64,000 bases of DNA from a virus (lineage: Duplodnaviria > Heunggongvirae > Uroviricota > Caudoviricetes), in IMG/VR virus record IMGVR_UViG_2718217859_000011, positions 1 through 64,000 of that record; one strand, 5' to 3'. The position numbers were made by a program, and so were the translations under genes. This document shows, one piece after another, positions 36,128 to 49,591 of the stretch (position 1 is the stretch's first letter; each line of letters starts with the position of its first letter). The notes beneath the pieces were generated by a model. The model saw only the letters and a list, made by a program, of their open reading frames with translations. It was not told the origin of the DNA and did no database searches.

Positions 36128-36720
36128 CCCCTGAATCCTGCCGGGATCTGGCTGTAGTCCACGTTGTCGTAACTGGCTTTGAAGTACGGGTCCTCGCGTC
36201 TGGCTGCAGATACTGCAGGAACTTCCCAGGATTCTTCGAAATGACGATCCGGACCAAAGAACGTGACAGCCTGTTTCACAAATTGTGTGCCGCTGTTACC
36301 CATCGCAGATACCCAGCCCGCGTAGCGTTTCACACCTTCCAGCATGGTTTCGGGGTTTACCCCCTCATTCAAACGGGCTTTCCAGGCTTTGAAGGCTGCA
36401 GATTTTAAATTGCCACCAGCACGTTTGGGATAGGCCAGCCATGCCTGCTCAAACTCCGGAGAGTATTCCGGTCGGTTTGAACGAACTCGCACAGACTCAT
36501 CAGCAGATGCACCAACAGCTATTGGTTCATTGACTGGTTCTTTGACTGGTTCAAAAGAGTGACTGGTTCTGGGTGAATCTCCTGCACTACCCCCTGGTGC
36601 AACTCCTGCACTACCTGGTGAATTTGCTGCACCAGATAGTGAATTATTTGCACTACCCCCTAGTGAATCTCCTGCACCATCAAGATGAAGGAGATAGATA
36701 TTACTTGTGTGGGGTAGTGA
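36124..36720 (-). pseudogene. 5'-truncated ORF remnant (unknown lambdoid gene) cut at the Mu-like junction
   Basis: Frame stays open for 76 codons upstream of the tracked GTG start (36492) with no start codon, ending two codons inside Mu-like DNA; Gly/Ser/Ala/Pro-rich repeats then a C-terminal domain. Confidence 0.4.
36531..36681. repeat. tandem direct repeats (3x TGACTGGTTC; ~5x 21-24-bp units)
   Basis: CATTGACTGGTTC / TTTGACTGGTTC / GAGTGACTGGTTC followed by GGTGAATCTCCTGCACTACCCCCT-like units. Confidence 0.6.
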
Positions 36721-37019: not shown

Positions 37020-37682
37020 TTATGCTGATTTCTTGTTTACAGGCTTAGTTTCTTGCTCCGGTGTGACGGGAACGCGATCACCTGGTGTTCCAGCACAGAA
37101 AATAGCTTTGGCGCGGCGCAAAATCTCTTTGTCATTTTCCTCATCGCCAGCTAATGCCATGCAAACAGCGTCTTTAAGCGATTGCCTGATGTTCAGGCTT
37201 TGAATGGCCTTCCTTTGTTCCTCAAGTTCGCTATCGGCTTGCTTGGTTTGCCTGGTGGGTTGCTGTAGGCGTTCAAGGACTCCTTTGATGCCAATACAAC
37301 ACAGCATATCAATAAGACGCTCTCTATCTTCTGGAGTAGCTCGCCTTAGTATTTCATCGACAATACTTGTGTTTGGGCGGTTAACGTCTTCTGTAGGCAC
37401 CTTTTTTTCTATTATTGGATCACGATCGCCCTCACCGTAGACCAGCCATTCCAGTGATACATTCTCTAATTTTGCTATCGTAGCGACCACATTTAGGCCG
37501 GGAGTGGTGCCTTTCTCAAAGTAGTTATTTATGGTCGAGTACGGCAACCCCCAGTCTGAGGTGGCTTTACGCAGACTCCTAGTGCCAACCAGTTGCTTGA
37601 TTCTGTCCTGAATGCTTTCTTTTCTATTCTGAGAAAAGGAAAAATCATCGGCGGTTTGTTTACTCACTTTCTTTCCTCTCAA
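37020..37682 (-). CDS. putative Mu-like repressor (c-like)
   Basis: 220 aa, transcribed leftward as first gene of the element, divergent from ner; HTH-like segment LRKATSDWGLPYSTINNYFEKG; assignment mostly by position. Confidence 0.5.
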   Translation of the reverse strand: MRGKKVSKQTADDFSFSQNRKESIQDRIKQLVGTRSLRKATSDWGLPYSTINNYFEKGTTPGLNVVATIAKLENVSLEWLVYGEGDRDPIIEKKVPTEDVNRPNTSIVDEILRRATPEDRERLIDMLCCIGIKGVLERLQQPTRQTKQADSELEEQRKAIQSLNIRQSLKDAVCMALAGDEENDKEILRRAKAIFCAGTPGDRVPVTPEQETKPVNKKSA

Positions 37683-37835: not shown

Positions 37836-38072
37836 ATGATGGTTAGAAATGAAGTAATGAACAAAGACTGGCACCGCGAGTACATCGTTGCCGCTGTGCA
37901 CACCAAAGGTTTTACATTGCGTGAACTTTCTGAACGCGCTGGTCTAAAAAAAGACTCTTTAAAAAATGCACTGTATCGCTCATGCCCTAAATATGAACGC
38001 ATCATAGCCGATGCTATTGGTGTGGAACCTGCGGAGATCTGGCCAAGCCGGTATGCCAGTAAGGCGGCGTAA
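37836..38072 (+). CDS. ner: DNA-binding protein Ner
   Basis: 78 aa; DWHREYIVAAV...SLKNAL...IIADAIGVEPAEIWPSRY recalled as Mu Ner-like. Confidence 0.8.
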   Translation: MMVRNEVMNKDWHREYIVAAVHTKGFTLRELSERAGLKKDSLKNALYRSCPKYERIIADAIGVEPAEIWPSRYASKAA

Positions 38073-40114
38073 TGTTTTATTCAGCCAATGAGCTGGCCGG
38101 TCTTCCTGGTTTGCCCGGTACAGTTCAGGGGGTGCGCTGGACGCTCAATCGGATCACAGATACGCACCCGGAATGGAAGCGCAAGCGCGAAGGCACCAAA
38201 GCATTCGAGTATCACATCGACTGCCTGCCCGCTGAAGCGCAGAAAGTTTTACGTAAGCGCCTGACCCATCAGGTTCTGGAAGATGCACAACTGCCCGCCG
38301 TGGTTGAGCAGAAGGCAGTTAAAAACGTCGCCGTTCGCGATGAACTGGAAGTGATGGTCAAATGCCCGGAACTGGCATTACGCGAAGTCCAGGCACTGAC
38401 CGACAAGCAAAAGGCCATTGCTGATGCGCGGATATTGCTGGCTACTGAAGTGCATAAACTGCGTGAATACGCCGGAATGACCAGGAAGGCCGCGTTAAAG
38501 CACATCGTTGATGGTGTGCGCATGGGGGCGTTGCCTGACCGCATTATCGAAGCAGCGAATACTGCAAATGCACGTCAGGGAAAGCGAACCGGTGTCAGCA
38601 CCGGCAGCCTGGATAGCTGGTACTCCAGCTGGGTGATGGCGCGCGGTGATGCCAATCAGTTACTGGCGTTACTGGCTCCCGGTCATCATAAGGGAACACC
38701 GTGGGAGCAGGTCTGGTGGTTGAGCGATTTCTTTATGTTCTATCGCTCATGGAAGCGCCCGACCGTTGAATATGCGTATCGCGAGTTTTCAGCCTGGTGG
38801 CATGAGAAGCACGCGAACGATGCGGGAATGCTGGCGGCACTGCCTTCCGTTCACGCAGTAAGACGGGTATTAAGCAGTGTCCCGGTGATTGTTAAGGAGC
38901 GTTTCCGCTCCACCGGTTCAGCCTGGCGTTCGCTCAATCCCTTTGTGCGACGCGACTGGAGCACATTACCGGTTAATGCGGTATGGGTCGGGGATGGTCA
39001 CTGTATGAAACTGATGGCATTCAGCCCTGCCACCGGGAATACATTCCGGCCAGAAGTGACGCTGGTTATGGATGCAGGACAACGCTTTATTGTGGGCTGG
39101 TCGCTGTCCCTGTCGGAGAACGTGGTGGCCGTTGCTGATGCATTGCGTCATGGCATGTCACAACACGGAATACCGCTGATTTATTACTCCGATAACGGGG
39201 GCGGTGAAAAAAACCGGGTGCTTGATGCCGATATTACCGGGATTTTGCCCCGGCTGGGTGTGGAACATCACACGGGGATACCAGGTAACCCGCAGGGGCG
39301 CGGGGTAATAGAACGGGCAAACAAAGGAATACCCAAAGATGTGGCTCTGAGTTTCCAGACGTACTGCTCAAAAAATGCAGACAAGGAAACGGTGATGATG
39401 CAGCAACGCATCACACAGTCAGCCATTAAGGCCACCCACAAAGGGAAGGAGCTGACAAAGCGGCAGGTTAAAGCAATGGGAGAAGTCCCCACCTTTGAGC
39501 AATTGATGGCCGCAATAGAGCTGGAGGTAAAACGGTATAACAACCGCCCACACAGCAGCCTTCCCCGCAAAGAGGATGGCGAACATTACAGCCCGGCAGC
39601 GTATCGCCGGAAACTGATAAAAGAGCAGAAAGCTGAAATCGACATGCTGTCGCCGGAAGAACTTCACGAAATGTTCCGACCGGAAAGCATCTGCACAGTG
39701 CGACGCGGTGAAGTGGTGTTATTCAGAAACATCTATTTCTCCACAGAACTGGCAGCAGAGCACGGAAATGAAGTCAGGGTTTGTTACGACATTCACGACG
39801 CAAACAGCGTGATTGTCAGGCGGATGGACGGTTCTTATATCTGCGATGCCATCTGGAACGGTAACAAGGTTGATGCGTTCCCTAAAGCTGTTATCGAACA
39901 ACAGCAGGAGAAACGCACCAGAGGCCGCATTGCACGGGCCGCGCAGAAAATCGAAGAGGCTAAACGCGAGCTTACTCCGGCTATTACGCAGAAACCTGAC
40001 TTTAATTTTGGATTTGGTCTGGAGCGCCCGGAGAAAAAGGAAAAAGAAGAACTTTATTTATTCGCATCTGAACGCGAACGCAATTTAAAGAAAAACGGCA
40101 CAAACAACCGTTAA
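38072..40114 (+). CDS. A: Mu-type DDE transposase A
   Basis: 680-aa ORF after ner; size and organisation as MuA. Confidence 0.9.
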   Translation: MFYSANELAGLPGLPGTVQGVRWTLNRITDTHPEWKRKREGTKAFEYHIDCLPAEAQKVLRKRLTHQVLEDAQLPAVVEQKAVKNVAVRDELEVMVKCPELALREVQALTDKQKAIADARILLATEVHKLREYAGMTRKAALKHIVDGVRMGALPDRIIEAANTANARQGKRTGVSTGSLDSWYSSWVMARGDANQLLALLAPGHHKGTPWEQVWWLSDFFMFYRSWKRPTVEYAYREFSAWWHEKHANDAGMLAALPSVHAVRRVLSSVPVIVKERFRSTGSAWRSLNPFVRRDWSTLPVNAVWVGDGHCMKLMAFSPATGNTFRPEVTLVMDAGQRFIVGWSLSLSENVVAVADALRHGMSQHGIPLIYYSDNGGGEKNRVLDADITGILPRLGVEHHTGIPGNPQGRGVIERANKGIPKDVALSFQTYCSKNADKETVMMQQRITQSAIKATHKGKELTKRQVKAMGEVPTFEQLMAAIELEVKRYNNRPHSSLPRKEDGEHYSPAAYRRKLIKEQKAEIDMLSPEELHEMFRPESICTVRRGEVVLFRNIYFSTELAAEHGNEVRVCYDIHDANSVIVRRMDGSYICDAIWNGNKVDAFPKAVIEQQQEKRTRGRIARAAQKIEEAKRELTPAITQKPDFNFGFGLERPEKKEKEELYLFASERERNLKKNGTNNR

Positions 40115-40132: not shown

Positions 40133-41026
40133 ATGAGTTTAATTACGCAATTAAATGACGTAATGGCCCGTCGCGGCTATACGCAGACCCACGTCGCCCG
40201 TGCTATTGGTCGTAGCAGCGCCGTTATCAGCCAGTATTTGCAGGGTAAATATCAGGGCGATATGTCTGATATTGAAGAACGCATTTCTGCCTTTGTGACC
40301 CGTGAGCGGGAAAAAGAAAACAGCCGCCGTATTAAAGCAAAGTTTGTGACCACCGGTATGGCTGCCAAAGGACTGGAGGTGCTGGCCTACGCTCACCTGG
40401 AATGTGAAATCTGTGTGCTGTATGGCGCAGCAGGTCTTGGCAAAACAATGATTCTGCGTGAATACGCCGCCAGAAACCGGGATGCGGTCCTGATTGAAGC
40501 CGACCCGGGCTATACAGCCAGAACACTGCTTGAGGAGCTGTGCCGCCAGCTGGGGGTAAAAGTTCGCGGCAATATCCACGAACTGATTGATGCATGTGTG
40601 CGAGAACTGCGTGATTCCGGTCGTCTGCTGATGGTGGACGAGGCTGAACTGCTCCCCTATCGCGCACTGGAGGTTCTGCGCCGTCTGCATGACAAAGCGG
40701 GTATCGGGGTTGTTCTGGCGGGTATGCCTCGCCTTCTGATTAACCTCAAGGGGCGTCGTGGTGAGTTCGCCCAGTTATACAGCCGCGTGGCGCTGGCGCT
40801 TAACCTGGGCGATACGTTGTCGCAGGAAGATTTTAACCAGATAGCTACCGGGTTGATGCCGGAAGCAGCAGAGCCGGAAATCAGCGAGGCGCTTTATACA
40901 CGTTCGCTGGGTAATGCCCGCCGTCTGTTCAAGCTGGCGCGTGGTGTGTACCGGATTTGTGATATCAGCGATGCGCCGGTCAGTGTGCAGGCCATTGATA
41001 AATTCGCAGAAATGTTAATTCACTGA
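40133..41026 (+). CDS. B: transposition ATPase B (AAA+)
   Basis: 297 aa; N-terminal HTH, Walker A GAAGLGKT, Walker B LLMVDEAE. Confidence 0.9.
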   Translation: MSLITQLNDVMARRGYTQTHVARAIGRSSAVISQYLQGKYQGDMSDIEERISAFVTREREKENSRRIKAKFVTTGMAAKGLEVLAYAHLECEICVLYGAAGLGKTMILREYAARNRDAVLIEADPGYTARTLLEELCRQLGVKVRGNIHELIDACVRELRDSGRLLMVDEAELLPYRALEVLRRLHDKAGIGVVLAGMPRLLINLKGRRGEFAQLYSRVALALNLGDTLSQEDFNQIATGLMPEAAEPEISEALYTRSLGNARRLFKLARGVYRICDISDAPVSVQAIDKFAEMLIH

Positions 41027-44416: not shown

Positions 44417-44599
44417 ATGAAAAACCGTAAGGCAAAAATTCTGTTAGCTCGCAGAAACGGTGTTGGGGTCTGGCGATGGTTGAGGATTAGTAACAGACGA
44501 GTGAGGTTGACGGGGTGTCGTGGTGTGATGGGGCACAGTTGTTGCAAAAAGCCCAGCGCGGCGCAAAACCGCTGGAAGAATCACACTAACGCAAAGTAA
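44417..44599 (+). CDS. small basic protein
   Basis: 60 aa from MKNRKAKILLARRNG inside tracked ORF 44324..44599. Confidence 0.25.
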   Translation: MKNRKAKILLARRNGVGVWRWLRISNRRVRLTGCRGVMGHSCCKKPSAAQNRWKNHTNAK

Positions 44600-44666
44600 T
44601 TAAATAATAACCAATAGCAGACCAAAATATATGTTTTGGTCTGCCAAAAGCGATGTTTTGGTCATT

Positions 44667-44945
44667 ATGAAGATTGAACAAATCGGAATGGCAGCCTTCC
44701 GGCAGCAGGCTGAAAGCGGTGGCGTGGATGAGTTCGTCGTGCAGAGGTTCGGTGGTGTGTATCACCTCTTCGCTGTGAATCGCCGCGCTGGTGTGTCTTA
44801 TTTTCTACAGGAACGCCGTGGCGATTACAAGACGTGGCTGTCTCTTGACCGTGCCGCCGCGTTCCTGTCAGGGATTGGCGTTTCACGTTTTACCGTGCGT
44901 TTTGAGGATAACAAACATGCTGAAAAAGATGATCGGAGCCATTAA
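44667..44945 (+). CDS. hypothetical early protein
   Basis: 92 aa from MKIEQIGM inside tracked ORF 44631..44945. Confidence 0.3.
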   Translation: MKIEQIGMAAFRQQAESGGVDEFVVQRFGGVYHLFAVNRRAGVSYFLQERRGDYKTWLSLDRAAAFLSGIGVSRFTVRFEDNKHAEKDDRSH

Positions 44946-45315
44946 AGCCGGTCAGGCGTATCTGGGGTGGGATGATGTCCTTTATCGCCAGACGCTGGCC
45001 CGCCTGACCGGTAAAACCAGCACCACACGCTGCAACCTCGATGAACTGCGCATCATCCGGGAATACATGCACGAACAGGGATTTCCGCGCAAAGCACCCG
45101 CCGGTAAAGGTCGCCGCCCCCGTGTTGCAATGAGCAGAAAATCAGTATTATCCAAAATTGAAGCGTTGCTGGCTGATGCCGGTCGTTCCTGGGCATATGC
45201 AGAAGGGCTGGCATCTCACATGTATAAGCAACATGTGATCGAATGGCTGACGGATGAACAGCTTTTTGGGGTAATGGTGGCGCTGGTTAAAGATTCAAGA
45301 AGGAGAAATCAATGA
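44917..45315 (+). CDS. gemA: GemA / Mu gp16-like protein (DUF1018)
   Basis: 132 aa from MLKKMIGAIKAGQAYLGWDDVLYRQTLARLTGK (GAGGA SD); pattern recalled as gp16/GemA-like. Confidence 0.65.
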   Translation: MLKKMIGAIKAGQAYLGWDDVLYRQTLARLTGKTSTTRCNLDELRIIREYMHEQGFPRKAPAGKGRRPRVAMSRKSVLSKIEALLADAGRSWAYAEGLASHMYKQHVIEWLTDEQLFGVMVALVKDSRRRNQ

Positions 45316-45791
45316 TGAAAAAATGGTTGTTTTGTTTAGTAGGGGTTATTTTCTCTTGTTCTGCGTTGGCTCAGACAGAGGAACAGGCGCAAAAGGAACT
45401 GAAACGTTATCAGGATATGAAACCACAGGTTGAGCAACTTCTGAGGGAAAGCCTGAAACTCTATTATGACATGCCAGACGCTGCATCAGAATATAATAAC
45501 GGTAACCCTGAAAAATGGCGTAAGGTCATAACAGGCCTGAAGGAATTCGATAAACAAATAGAGAAAATTGGCGGTAATGGCTTCGATCCTGTTTATAGTT
45601 CCTGTGTAAATATGGGGATTCAACTACAGGATTACTGGTCTAACGTCCTCGGCAACAACAAACAGTTTCTCGAGCGTTCCAGAAGTTTGTTTATACAGGA
45701 TCGCATGGATTGCTTTGATCAATTCGTCTTTGGTAAAGAACGTATAGAGGCCAGAAAAGACCTTGCCATTGTTAATGTCTGGGATGAATAA
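45312..45791 (+). CDS. secreted/periplasmic protein with signal peptide, unknown function
   Basis: 159 aa; signal peptide MMKKWLFCLVGVIFSCSALA; AT-rich by eye; own terminator downstream. Confidence 0.5.
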   Translation: MMKKWLFCLVGVIFSCSALAQTEEQAQKELKRYQDMKPQVEQLLRESLKLYYDMPDAASEYNNGNPEKWRKVITGLKEFDKQIEKIGGNGFDPVYSSCVNMGIQLQDYWSNVLGNNKQFLERSRSLFIQDRMDCFDQFVFGKERIEARKDLAIVNVWDE

Positions 45792-45798
45792 ACAGGAA

Positions 45799-45822
45799 CC
45801 TCCGCAAACGCGGAGGTTTTTT
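45799..45822 (+). terminator. intrinsic terminator
   Basis: CCTCCGC-AAAC-GCGGAGG followed by TTTTTT. Confidence 0.65.
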
Positions 45823-45885
45823 ATGAACTGTACAGGCGATCATGTATGGCTATAATAACAGTAAGTTACTACCGGAGACGCCATC

Positions 45886-46353
45886 ATGCAGACCTTCAGT
45901 GAAACAGATCTTCGCGATGCGCAGGTACTGCTGCCCGATTCCGTACAGCAACTGATTAGCGTGATTGGCTTCCCCGCCCTGACCCGGTTAATCCGTTCTT
46001 TTGGTGGCGTGACGTTAAGCGGTAAAACCGGCGCACACGCCGGACGCACCGGCGGTGTCCATGCCCTGTTACATGACGTGCTGACCGAAGACGAAATCAA
46101 CAAATTGATCCGCTTTCTTGGCGGTGCACCGTTTTACATTCCTCGTTGCGATCATGCGTTACGTGCCCTGCGTAACACCCGTTTTATGGCTGATTTACAG
46201 CAGCATGTAAAAGACGGATGCTCACACCGGCAGGCGCTGGCACTACTCTGTCCCCGTTACGGGATTTCAGACCGGTACGCATGGCAACTGATACACCGAC
46301 GACAAAAACAGACTTCGCTGAAAAGCCCCACCCAGGTGGGGCTTTTTGATTAA
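45886..46353 (+). CDS. Mor/C-family transcriptional activator
   Basis: 155 aa; C-terminal HTH region (FYIPRCDHALRALRNTRFMADLQ...YGISDRYAWQLIHRR) resembles Mu Mor/C; TATAAT ~30 nt upstream. Confidence 0.65.
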   Translation: MQTFSETDLRDAQVLLPDSVQQLISVIGFPALTRLIRSFGGVTLSGKTGAHAGRTGGVHALLHDVLTEDEINKLIRFLGGAPFYIPRCDHALRALRNTRFMADLQQHVKDGCSHRQALALLCPRYGISDRYAWQLIHRRQKQTSLKSPTQVGLFD

Positions 46354-46378
46354 CAGGCCTCAGAAAAAGGAGACACTT

Positions 46379-46657
46379 ATGACCAACTATACGGCACCAG
46401 GCGAGTATACGGCCTACTCAGAGCAGGCCCGGGATGCTGCCGGACGCCGCTTCGCTTATATGAAAAATCTGGCCAGCCAGCTAAACCGAATGGCCGAACA
46501 ACCGGATATGGTTGTTCAGGAAGAAGCGTTGCAGTGTGCCATTGCTGACATCATCGCCAGCGAAAACGAGATGCGCGCAGCGATGGAAAAGGCGAACGCC
46601 TCTGCTCCGCTTTGTAATAAACCTCTTATTACGCCGGATTCTCTTTCCCGCTTCTGA
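46379..46657 (+). CDS. hypothetical protein
   Basis: 92 aa from MTNYTAPGEY inside tracked ORF 46346..46657. Confidence 0.3.
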   Translation: MTNYTAPGEYTAYSEQARDAAGRRFAYMKNLASQLNRMAEQPDMVVQEEALQCAIADIIASENEMRAAMEKANASAPLCNKPLITPDSLSRF

Positions 46658-46660
46658 TTT

Positions 46661-46684
46661 AGCACCCCGCCGCGGCGGGGTGCT
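46661..46684. promoter_or_regulatory. perfect 24-bp palindrome upstream of the Mu-like lysis genes
   Basis: AGCACCCCGCCGCGGCGGGGTGCT; no T-tract after it, so not a canonical terminator. Confidence 0.4.
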
Positions 46685-46840
46685 GAACTCCCCCAGCAGT
46701 ACCCACCACACCAGACCGTTTACCCTCTCCACTCAGACCACAAGGCACCTTAAGGGATAGCGCCCGGCAAAAGTCATTCTGTGCCTTTGACCGGGTGTTA
46801 TTTACGGGCCGTCAGTGGCTCAGATTTACAGGAGAAACTC

Positions 46841-47894: not shown

Positions 47895-48077
47895 ATGAAC
47901 AGAAGTCACTGGCCCCACAGAACGCCACGTAAAGCCGTGCGCTGTGTTCTGGCCCTGTTTCTGGTGATGTTGCTTCCGGTGGGATGCACTGACATTAACA
48001 GAGCGGGCCAGCTGTTTGACGCGGCGGCACAGGTCTGCCGGATTATCGACGGTATCCGGCAGTGTTCGCAGAACTGA
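47895..48077 (+). CDS. lipoprotein, spanin-like
   Basis: 60 aa; signal peptide with lipobox LLPVGC; directly after endolysin. Confidence 0.4.
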   Translation: MNRSHWPHRTPRKAVRCVLALFLVMLLPVGCTDINRAGQLFDAAAQVCRIIDGIRQCSQN

Positions 48078-48850: not shown

Positions 48851-49591
48851 ATGCAAAAACAGATTATTGGTAACGCAACGTTGTATTGCGGTGATGTTCT
48901 TGATGTGCTGCCAGCGTTATCCGAACGTTTTGATGCCGTCATTACCGACCCGCCTTACAGCAGTGGTGGCACACATAAATCAGACCGCAGCATAGCCCCT
49001 TCGGACAAGTATGTCGGTCACACCCGGTATGCCGAGTTCACCGGCGATAACCGCGACCAGCGCAGCTGGGCGTTCTGGTGTTCCATGTGGATTTCTCATG
49101 CATTGCACAGGCTGAATCCCGGCGGTTATTTCATGGTGTTCAGTGACTGGCGACAACTACCGGCGCTTACCGATGCATTTCAGGCCGGTGGTGTGCTGTG
49201 GCGTGGTCTGGTTGTCTGGGATAAAACGCAGGCTTCCCGTGCGCCACACACCGGCTATTTCCGGCATCAGGCCGAGTATGTGGTCTGGGGCAGCAACGGA
49301 AAACTCGACAAATGCCCGCACGGTGGCCCGTTCCCTGGTGTGATTACGCAGCGTGTTGTCCCGTCTGAAAAACTGCACATGACCGCAAAGCCAGTTCAGC
49401 TGATGGCCGAGCTGGTTAAACCGCTGGCACCGGATGCGCACGTCCTCGATCCGTTTATGGGAAGCGGCACCACCGCCATCCCTGTACTTGCCCGTGGCGG
49501 ACGGTTTACCGGCATTGAAATGACTAACCAGTATTTTGATATCGCCTGCGCACGTATCGAAAAAGCGCAGGCAGAAGCAGCGCAGGTGTGA
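48851..49591 (+). CDS. DNA methyltransferase, beta-class (DPPY ... FMGSGTT)
   Basis: 246 aa; TDPPY at residues ~32-36 and FMGSGTT near C-terminus; no restriction partner. Confidence 0.85.
   Translation: MQKQIIGNATLYCGDVLDVLPALSERFDAVITDPPYSSGGTHKSDRSIAPSDKYVGHTRYAEFTGDNRDQRSWAFWCSMWISHALHRLNPGGYFMVFSDWRQLPALTDAFQAGGVLWRGLVVWDKTQASRAPHTGYFRHQAEYVVWGSNGKLDKCPHGGPFPGVITQRVVPSEKLHMTAKPVQLMAELVKPLAPDAHVLDPFMGSGTTAIPVLARGGRFTGIEMTNQYFDIACARIEKAQAEAAQV

What the first reader, a model, noticed from the sequence alone, without database searches (positions are those of the whole stretch)
45312..45825. Signal-peptide protein moron with its own terminator in the Mu-like early/middle junction
Between the gemA-like gene and the Mor-family activator is a 159-aa protein with a clear Sec signal peptide, visibly AT-rich, followed by a strong intrinsic terminator. 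A secreted protein here is not part of the Mu core set I recall and looks like lysogenic-conversion cargo.
Basis: partly seen in the sequence, partly recalled or inferred. Interest (0 to 1): 0.45.

Follow-up and report, generated by a model that had tools for sequence, protein, structure and literature searches.

The report
Exported cargo protein in Mu-like prophage
A small exported four-helix protein of unknown function sits in a swap-in/swap-out slot at the end of the early operon of an E. coli Mu-like prophage; the gene is real and found only in such phages, but it is an ordinary kind of accessory gene, and the terminator after it belongs to the phage backbone.

Summary
ORF 45312-45791 (159 aa) lies between gemA and mor, is AT-rich (GC 0.41 vs 0.52-0.54), starts with a Sec-type signal peptide (…SALA|QTEE) and is followed by a strong hairpin plus T-run.

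- **Terminator:** it is not the gene's own. Prophages with an empty slot keep a terminator directly after gemA, followed by the same conserved promoter in front of mor.
- **Expression signals:** no promoter was detected. The ATG overlaps the gemA stop (ATGA), so the gene is the last cistron of the early operon.
- **Origin:** it is not foreign one-off cargo. It belongs to a tiny unnamed family (12 representatives among 1.84 billion proteins). Every member whose context could be read lies beside gemA or mor in a Mu-like (pro)phage.

Among 57 E. coli records the slot holds this family (22), either of two unrelated exported two-cysteine proteins (12 and 5), or nothing (18).

The mature protein is predicted with confidence as a four-helix bundle with two invariant cysteines; no specific structural or sequence relative was found. 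My best guess, with low confidence, is a periplasmic binding protein made during lytic growth that protects the envelope or excludes other phages. It is a new member of a known kind, of modest interest.

The parts
44917..45315 (+). gemA (gp16 family). Its TGA stop overlaps the ATG of the cargo gene.
   Evidence: Pfam PF06252 E 3.5e-18; sequence
45300..45305 (+). Shine-Dalgarno AAGGAG, 6 nt before the ATG, inside the gemA 3' end
   Evidence: read from the sequence
45312..45791 (+). Cargo gene: 159-aa precursor of an exported four-helix-bundle protein (unnamed family)
45312..45371 (+). Sec/SPase I-type signal peptide (aa 1-20, predicted cleavage ALA|QT)
   Evidence: heuristic plus conservation in all 19 family members examined; Cys16 not conserved, so not a lipobox
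45372..45788 (+). Mature 139-aa (16.5 kDa, pI 5.0) four-helix bundle. Invariant G64, C98, W109 and C134; C98-C134 is a presumed disulfide.
   Evidence: AlphaFold model pLDDT 89.9, pTM 0.81; alignments A2 and A4
45794..45824 (+). [quoted passage not shown] A backbone feature, not part of the cassette.
   Evidence: -18.4 kcal/mol, z -6.2; a terminator is also present in empty-slot prophages
45829..45856 (+). Conserved sigma70-like promoter TGTACA-16-TATAAT in front of mor
   Evidence: 10/12 match; identical in all slot variants; same layout in divergent prophage L011
45886..46353 (+). mor-family activator, the only Mor/C homologue in the window

Best explanation
**What it is.** The gene encodes a Sec-exported, roughly 16.5-kDa periplasmic four-helix-bundle protein, probably stapled by one disulfide (C98-C134). 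It belongs to a very small unnamed family found so far only in Mu-like transposable (pro)phages of Enterobacterales and Pasteurellaceae.

**Where it sits.** In this E. coli prophage lineage it fills a polymorphic cargo slot between the gemA stop codon and the early-operon terminator. The terminator and the mor promoter beyond it are phage backbone.

**How it is expressed (inferred).** No promoter was detected and the ATG overlaps the gemA stop. It is therefore most likely transcribed from the early promoter as the last early cistron and translationally coupled to gemA. That places its synthesis early after induction or infection, and at most at the leak level of the early operon in a lysogen.

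**What it does (inferred, low confidence).** After export and oxidation it acts by binding a periplasmic or envelope target. The most likely role is protecting the infected cell's envelope or blocking entry of competing phages (superinfection exclusion). The two unrelated exported two-cysteine proteins found in the same slot would be alternative solutions to the same task.

**Confidence by step.** Anatomy and family ~0.9; co-expression with gemA ~0.7; exclusion or protection role ~0.3.
For: **Anatomy and signals**
- ORF, overlap with gemA and Shine-Dalgarno.
- No promoter-like site upstream within gemA; the strongest promoter match in the 10 kb scanned lies after the terminator.

**The slot is polymorphic**

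| Slot content | Insert | Records (of 57) |
|---|---|---|
| This family | ~515 bp | 22 |
| Unrelated 112-aa protein | ~376 bp | 12 |
| Unrelated 174-aa protein | ~626 bp | 5 |
| Empty | ~55 bp | 18 |

- One or two representatives of each class were read; the rest are assigned by insert length.
- Empty sites keep the terminator and promoter.
- All three cassette types encode a signal peptide plus exactly two cysteines in the mature part. No other ORF among the 38 tested passes the same signal-peptide heuristic.

**Family context**
- P0012 lies after GemA.
- P0013 lies between GemA and Mor, with the same ATGA overlap, terminator and TGTACA/TATAAT promoter.
- P0014 (Xenorhabdus) lies between two Mor paralogues.
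- P0016 lies between Mor and a holin.
- Klebsiella phage ST405-OXA48phi1.1 QBA84959 lies between mor and the endolysin.
- The Haemophilus phage SuMu member lies between GemA and Mor.

**Selection and structure**
- Purifying selection, dN/dS 0.155.
- Confident helical-bundle model.

**Analogy**
- T4 Spackle is an early, exported, disulfide-bonded helical-bundle protein that excludes superinfecting phage (PMC7677548).
Against: - There is no functional evidence of any kind.
- No PADLOC, Pfam, NCBIfam or informative PHROG hit.
- No sequence similarity to Spackle or any other solved structure.
- Temperate-phage exclusion proteins are usually expressed from the prophage, which this layout does not obviously allow.
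- The promoter scan is crude, and AT-rich DNA can hold cryptic promoters.
- A conserved inverted repeat and a weak promoter-like site upstream of orf92-gemA (44580-44664) could define a sub-operon with its own regulation.
- Mu's gem operon has been reported to act in lysogens (PMC3820752).
Confidence: 0.4

Rival explanations
1. Lysogenic-conversion moron. The protein is made in the lysogen and benefits the host, for example through envelope resistance, host interaction or orphan immunity to a periplasm-acting toxin.
For: - Accessory, AT-rich and exported.
- Found in pathogens such as EPEC E2348/69.
- Low-level early-operon and gem expression is reported in Mu lysogens (PMC3820752).
- A conserved regulatory-looking element lies upstream of orf92-gemA.
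Against: - No promoter-like site of its own was found, and the terminator is backbone.
- The start codon overlaps the gemA stop inside the repressed early operon.
- The family is tied to the gemA/mor junction of Mu-like phages in hosts with very different lifestyles: E. coli, Yersinia, Xenorhabdus, Klebsiella, Haemophilus.
- No similarity to known immunity or virulence proteins.
Confidence: 0.2
2. Lysis-timing or envelope-preparation factor. A periplasmic regulator that acts on the phage's own holin, endolysin or spanin system, or on the cell wall, ahead of lysis.
For: - In several relatives the family gene sits directly upstream of the lysis cassette, between Mor and a holin or endolysin.
- In the window it is ~1 kb upstream of two holins and an M15 peptidase.
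- Mu's own middle genes 19 and 20 are envelope proteins of unknown role (PMC9239132).
Against: - The family occurs with at least three unrelated endolysin types: M15 peptidase, GH108/Phage_lysozyme and GH19.
- 35 of 57 related E. coli records lack it, so it is dispensable for lysis.
- It is separated from the lysis genes by a terminator and mor.
Confidence: 0.12
3. Sensor-domain mimic. A free periplasmic four-helix bundle that pairs with, or competes for the partner of, a host four-helix-bundle sensor (histidine kinase or chemoreceptor) and so rewires host signalling.
Against: - These are generic bundle matches at 2-13% identity.
- Talin rods and de novo designed bundles score equally well.
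- No Pfam 4HB_MCP hit.
Confidence: 0.07
4. Chance ORF or annotation artefact in an AT-rich spacer.
For: None beyond the lack of database annotation.
Against: - dN/dS is 0.155 at dS 1.28.
- Homologues down to ~20% identity keep the signal peptide, two cysteines, G64 and W109.
- Confident structure model.
- Good Shine-Dalgarno.
Confidence: 0.01

Closest known systems
Phage morons / accessory 'regions of genomic plasticity' (lambdoid morons; RGPs of Pseudomonas Mu-like phages, PMC4378225)
   Same: A single extra gene between two genes that are adjacent in relatives. It has deviant base composition and is present or absent among near-identical phages.
   Different: No promoter-like site of its own was found and no terminator of its own. 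It rides on the early operon, upstream of the backbone terminator. The same family recurs at this junction across distant Mu-like phages, so it is not a one-off acquisition.
T4 Spackle (gp61.3), periplasmic superinfection-exclusion protein (PMC7677548, PMC7650644)
   Same: Early-operon gene, cleaved export signal, small acidic helical bundle with one disulfide, located in the periplasm.
   Different: No sequence or specific fold similarity. It is about twice the size (139 vs 75 aa mature). No target is known. This is an analogy of logic only.
Periplasmic four-helix-bundle sensor domains (Tar/Tsr/PcaY ligand-binding domains; QseE, LytS and KinB sensor domains)
   Different: It is a free soluble protein with no second transmembrane helix or signalling domain. 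Identity is 2-13%, no Pfam match was found, and the bundle matches are non-specific.
Mu middle-region proteins gp19/gp20 (PMC9239132)
   Same: Small, envelope-directed, non-essential proteins of unknown function beside mor in a transposable phage.
   Different: Those are integral membrane proteins between mor and C. No homology was seen between this family and Mu: tblastn against 50,697 phage records found nothing, and the Mu layout was read.

Membership tests
Moron (classical definition) | Present or absent between genes that are adjacent in related phages | tested here: met
   18 of 57 related E. coli records have an empty slot; 17 carry other cassettes. In Mu, gemA and mor abut.
Moron (classical definition) | Base composition different from neighbours | tested here: met
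   GC 0.408 against 0.52-0.54
Moron (classical definition) | Own promoter | tested here: not met
   No sigma70-like site in 44650-45312; the ATG overlaps the gemA stop. The consensus scan is crude, so weak or cryptic promoters are not excluded.
Moron (classical definition) | Own terminator | tested here: not met
   Empty slots keep a terminator after gemA. Terminator alleles are shared between unrelated cassettes.
Moron (classical definition) | Expressed from the repressed prophage | not testable with these tools
   Needs transcript data from lysogens.
Sec/SPase I exported protein | Positive n-region, hydrophobic h-region, small residues at -3/-1, polar mature N-terminus | tested here: met
   Heuristic analysis. 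The layout is conserved in all 19 family members examined despite sequence change. SignalP was not available.
Bacterial lipoprotein (SPase II) | Lipobox L-[AS]-[GA]-C with invariant Cys | tested here: not met
   The sequence is I-F-S-C, and the Cys is replaced by Phe in P0006 and P0007.
T4 Spackle family | Sequence or structural homology to gp61.3 | tested here: not met
T4 Spackle family | Inhibits a tail-associated lysozyme / excludes superinfecting phage | not testable with these tools
   Needs experiments.
4HB_MCP / four-helix-bundle sensor domain | Profile match, and flanked by two transmembrane helices within a receptor or kinase | tested here: not met
   No Pfam hit at E<=1. The protein ends after the bundle.
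Mu core early gene set | Homologue present in phage Mu | tested here: not met
   Mu gemA and mor overlap with nothing between them. tblastn against the phage collection found nothing.
Known anti-phage defence proteins (PADLOC) | Profile match | tested here: not met
   No hit at E<=0.1 for this protein, the two alternative cassettes, or P0013 and P0014.

The most novel reading that the evidence does not exclude
The gemA-terminator slot of Mu-like phages may be a dedicated hot spot for interchangeable periplasm-acting factors. Three unrelated exported two-cysteine proteins occupy it in near-identical prophages. The ORF159 family would then be a new class of phage periplasmic inhibitor, either a Spackle-like blocker of incoming phage or a decoy of host four-helix-bundle sensors, deployed during transpositional replication.
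Probability: 0.2. Interest if true: 0.6.

Novelty: new member of a known kind. Interest (0 to 1): 0.35.

Why it matters
If the inferred role holds, this would be a new family of phage-encoded periplasmic exclusion or protection proteins. It would also mark a defined genomic slot in which to mine further ones in transposable phages, which are common prophages of enteric pathogens. The practical result here is a corrected anatomy. The terminator and mor promoter are backbone, and cargo is inserted upstream of the terminator so that it borrows the early operon's transcription. That explains why this junction tolerates gene swapping. It also flags a difference from Mu, where mor is the last early gene and has no terminator or promoter in front of it.

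Tried and rejected
- **Family libraries.** Pfam, PHROGs, NCBIfam and PADLOC gave nothing meaningful for the protein. Only distant family members touch phrog_29261 and phrog_30411, both of unknown function.
- **Sequenced phages.** megablast and tblastn against 50,697 phage records found no match for ORF159 itself.
- **Solved structures by sequence.** The PDB profile search returned only de novo designed bundles at E ~1e-3.
- **Terminator dyad as the activator binding site for the mor promoter.** Rejected: two different terminator alleles occur with the identical Mor protein WP_001192995.1.
- **Lipoprotein.** Rejected.
- **Chance ORF.** Rejected.
- **LexA box at CTGTACAG.** Considered by eye and dropped because there is no second half-site.

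Full report
**Observation**

An AAGGAG Shine-Dalgarno lies 6 nt upstream, and the ATG overlaps the TGA stop of the upstream gene (ATGA). The upstream gene is gemA (Pfam PF06252, E 3.5e-18). The downstream gene, 45886..46353, is a Mor-family activator (Pfam E 1.9e-6; phrog_836 E 4e-42).

The ORF is AT-rich: GC 0.408 and GC3 0.425, against 0.519 for gemA and 0.538 for mor.

The N-terminus MMKKWLFCLVGVIFSCSALA|QTEE has the three regions of a Sec/SPase I signal peptide. This layout is kept in all 19 family members examined while the sequence drifts. Cys16 is not conserved, so the protein is not a lipoprotein. The same heuristic passes only this ORF among 38 + strand ORFs of at least 50 aa from 37.8 kb onward.

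A 12-bp hairpin with a T6 run follows the stop codon (45794-45824; -18.4 kcal/mol, z -6.2).

The gene is under purifying selection. Against the E2348/69 allele, dN/dS is 0.155 at dS 1.28.

**Setting**

The window carries a Mu-like transposable prophage. The genes read, in order, are:
- a CI-type repressor (37020-37682, minus strand);
- a Mu-type transposase (38072-40114);
- a MuB-like AAA+ protein (40133-41026);
- DUF3164, DUF2786 and DUF4752 proteins;
- gemA, the cargo gene, and mor;
- two holins and an M15 peptidase;
- DUF1804 and a terminase.

The region around the gene (44600-46700) is 100% identical to E. coli RM9088 and to eight OkiPb017xx genomes. There is one Mor/C-family gene and one member of the cargo family in the window.

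**The slot is polymorphic and the terminator is backbone**

I searched 5,426 complete E. coli genomes with the two flanks joined and the cassette removed. This found 57 records with flanks 96-100% identical. The distance between the flanks falls into four classes:

| Slot content | Insert length | Records |
|---|---|---|
| ORF159 family (9 identical to the window, 1 close to it, 12 of the E2348/69 allele at 67% aa identity) | ~515 bp | 22 |
| Unrelated 112-aa protein | ~376 bp | 12 |
| Unrelated 174-aa protein | ~626 bp | 5 |
| Empty | ~55 bp | 18 |

I read one or two representatives of each class. The other records are assigned by insert length only. Some records are repeat assemblies or clonal isolates, so these are counts of records, not of lineages.

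The empty sites (strains C5 and RIVM_C036569) still have a terminator, GCCCCTGCCTTGCAGGGGC-T6, directly after gemA. It is followed by the invariant CTGTACAGGCGATCATGTATGGCTATAAT and then mor.

Two terminator alleles exist, and they do not track the cassette. The CCTCCGC allele follows both ORF159 and the 112-aa gene. The GCCCCTGC allele follows both the empty site and the 174-aa gene.

The terminator is therefore the end of the phage's early operon. Cargo is inserted between the gemA stop and that terminator.

The promoter-like site after the terminator (TGTACA-16-TATAAT, 45829-45856) is the best match in the 10 kb scanned. No such site lies within gemA upstream of the cargo.

**The family**

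The family is very small. A word-indexed search of 5.8 billion proteins found 9 clusters, from E. coli, Salmonella, Yersinia enterocolitica and E. albertii. A full HMMER pass over 1.84 billion representatives found 12. A broader profile added only Xenorhabdus proteins and metagenomic fragments. All are annotated as hypothetical, and none has a Pfam domain.

Members share the signal peptide, an NGN-x2-W turn, a DPVYG-x-C loop, a YW pair and a second cysteine. Invariant positions are G64, C98, W109 and C134.

Every member whose context could be read lies in a Mu-like (pro)phage next to gemA or mor:

| Member | Host or source | Position |
|---|---|---|
| P0012 | assembly GCA_900447585.1 (organism not given) | after GemA |
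| P0013 | assembly GCA_020226135.1 (organism not given) | GemA / X / Mor, with the same ATGA overlap, terminator and TGTACA/TATAAT promoter |
| P0014 | Xenorhabdus | between two Mor paralogues |
| P0016 | metagenome | Mor / X / holin |
| QBA84959 | Klebsiella phage ST405-OXA48phi1.1 | mor / X / GH19 endolysin (hhalign 96%) |
| gp15 | Haemophilus phage SuMu | GemA / X / Mor (hhalign 97%, E 9e-11) |

The SuMu member is the C-terminal 179 aa of a gp15 whose start is annotated too far upstream.

Phage Mu itself has nothing at this position. Its gemA and mor overlap by 4 nt.

The 112-aa alternative cassette (phrog_5882) has a homologue in the same post-gemA position in Mannheimia phage 3927AP2.

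**Structure**

The mature protein (139 aa, 16.5 kDa, pI 5.0) is predicted with confidence as an up-down four-helix bundle (pLDDT 89.9, pTM 0.81).

**Interpretation**

What is shown:
- The gene encodes a real protein with a conserved Sec-type signal peptide.
- The family has been found only in Mu-like phages.
- It is accessory and sits in a swap slot.
- It has no terminator of its own, and no promoter of its own was detected.

What is inferred:
- It is co-transcribed and translationally coupled with gemA as the last early cistron.
- It is exported and oxidised in the periplasm.
- It acts by binding some envelope target.

All three unrelated cassettes in the slot encode a signal peptide plus exactly two cysteines in the mature part. 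No other ORF among the 38 tested passes the same signal-peptide heuristic. This suggests the slot is selected for periplasm-acting functions that are interchangeable.

My best guess at the task is protection of the envelope, or exclusion of competing phages, during lytic development. The logic is that of T4 Spackle, an early, exported, disulfide-bonded helical bundle (PMC7677548). There is no homology to Spackle and no direct evidence, and I put this at about 0.3.

Rivals, with my estimates:
- **Lysogen-expressed conversion factor (0.2).** Kept alive by reports of low Pe and gem activity in Mu lysogens (PMC3820752), and by a conserved regulatory-looking element upstream of orf92-gemA.
- **Lysis-timing factor (0.12).**
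- **Mimic of host four-helix-bundle sensor domains (0.07).**

**Comparison with known systems and verdict**

The gene meets two of the four testable criteria of a classical moron: presence/absence polymorphism and deviant composition. It fails the other two, own promoter and own terminator.

It resembles the single-gene plasticity regions described in Pseudomonas Mu-like phages (PMC4378225). It also echoes Mu's own uncharacterised envelope proteins gp19 and gp20, which lie next to mor (PMC9239132).

It is a new, unnamed family within a familiar category. The moron label is partly right. 'Own terminator' is wrong, and 'lysogenic conversion' is unsupported. Interest is modest at 0.35. It would rise if the slot proves to be a general hot spot for periplasmic anti-phage factors.

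Noticed in passing
window 44615-44664: Inverted repeat GCAGACCAAAA-N6-TTTTGGTCTGC, plus a third TTTTGGTC copy just before the ATG of orf92 (44667). It is conserved in six prophage variants even where the upstream gene differs, and a weak promoter-like site lies at 44580-44608. It may be an operator or an alternative-hairpin control element for an orf92-gemA-cargo sub-operon.
   Followed up: partly
window 45794-45886: mor lies downstream of the early terminator, behind a conserved sigma70-like promoter (TGTACA-16-TATAAT). In Mu, mor overlaps gemA as the last early gene. The same layout occurs in the divergent prophage L011. This is the only Mor/C homologue in the window, so how it stays silent in the lysogen is unexplained.
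   Followed up: partly
L006 (Haemophilus phage SuMu NC_019455) ~1786-2325: The annotated gp15 (285 aa, overlapping gemA, labelled COG3023) appears to have a wrong start. The C-terminal 179 aa, beginning MKKSLLCLFILSSVAMA, form a signal-peptide protein of the ORF159 family.
   Followed up: yes
window 45312-45430 vs L002 2213-2330: The first ~120 nt of the cargo gene are 93-95% identical between the window and E2348/69 alleles, while the rest is 58-75% identical. A recombination breakpoint therefore lies inside the gene, near codon 40.
   Followed up: partly
L003 2210-2548; L004 2262-2786; L019 1473-1820: Two unrelated cassettes occupy the same slot in sister prophages: 112 aa (phrog_5882, weak Sel1-like) and 174 aa (phrog_19473). 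Both have a signal peptide and two cysteines in the mature part. The 112-aa type also sits just after gemA in Mannheimia phage 3927AP2.
   Followed up: partly
window 47895-48077: A 60-aa ORF directly after the M15 peptidase contains a lipobox-like LPVGC, so it may be an o-spanin or unimolecular spanin. RefSeq annotates it only as a hypothetical protein.
   Followed up: no
window 48851-49591 vs L001 7294-8101: The window has a 246-aa ORF between DUF1804 and the terminase that looks like a DNA methyltransferase by eye (DPPY motif; not checked against any family library). In RM9088 an IS21-family element (ISEc12 istAB) follows DUF1804 at that point. The window therefore matches the OkiPb-type copy rather than RM9088 beyond ~48.8 kb.
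   Followed up: no
window 36500-36700: Short direct repeats (…tgactggttc… and …cctgcactaccccctggtg…) lie just outside the presumed left end of the prophage.
   Followed up: no
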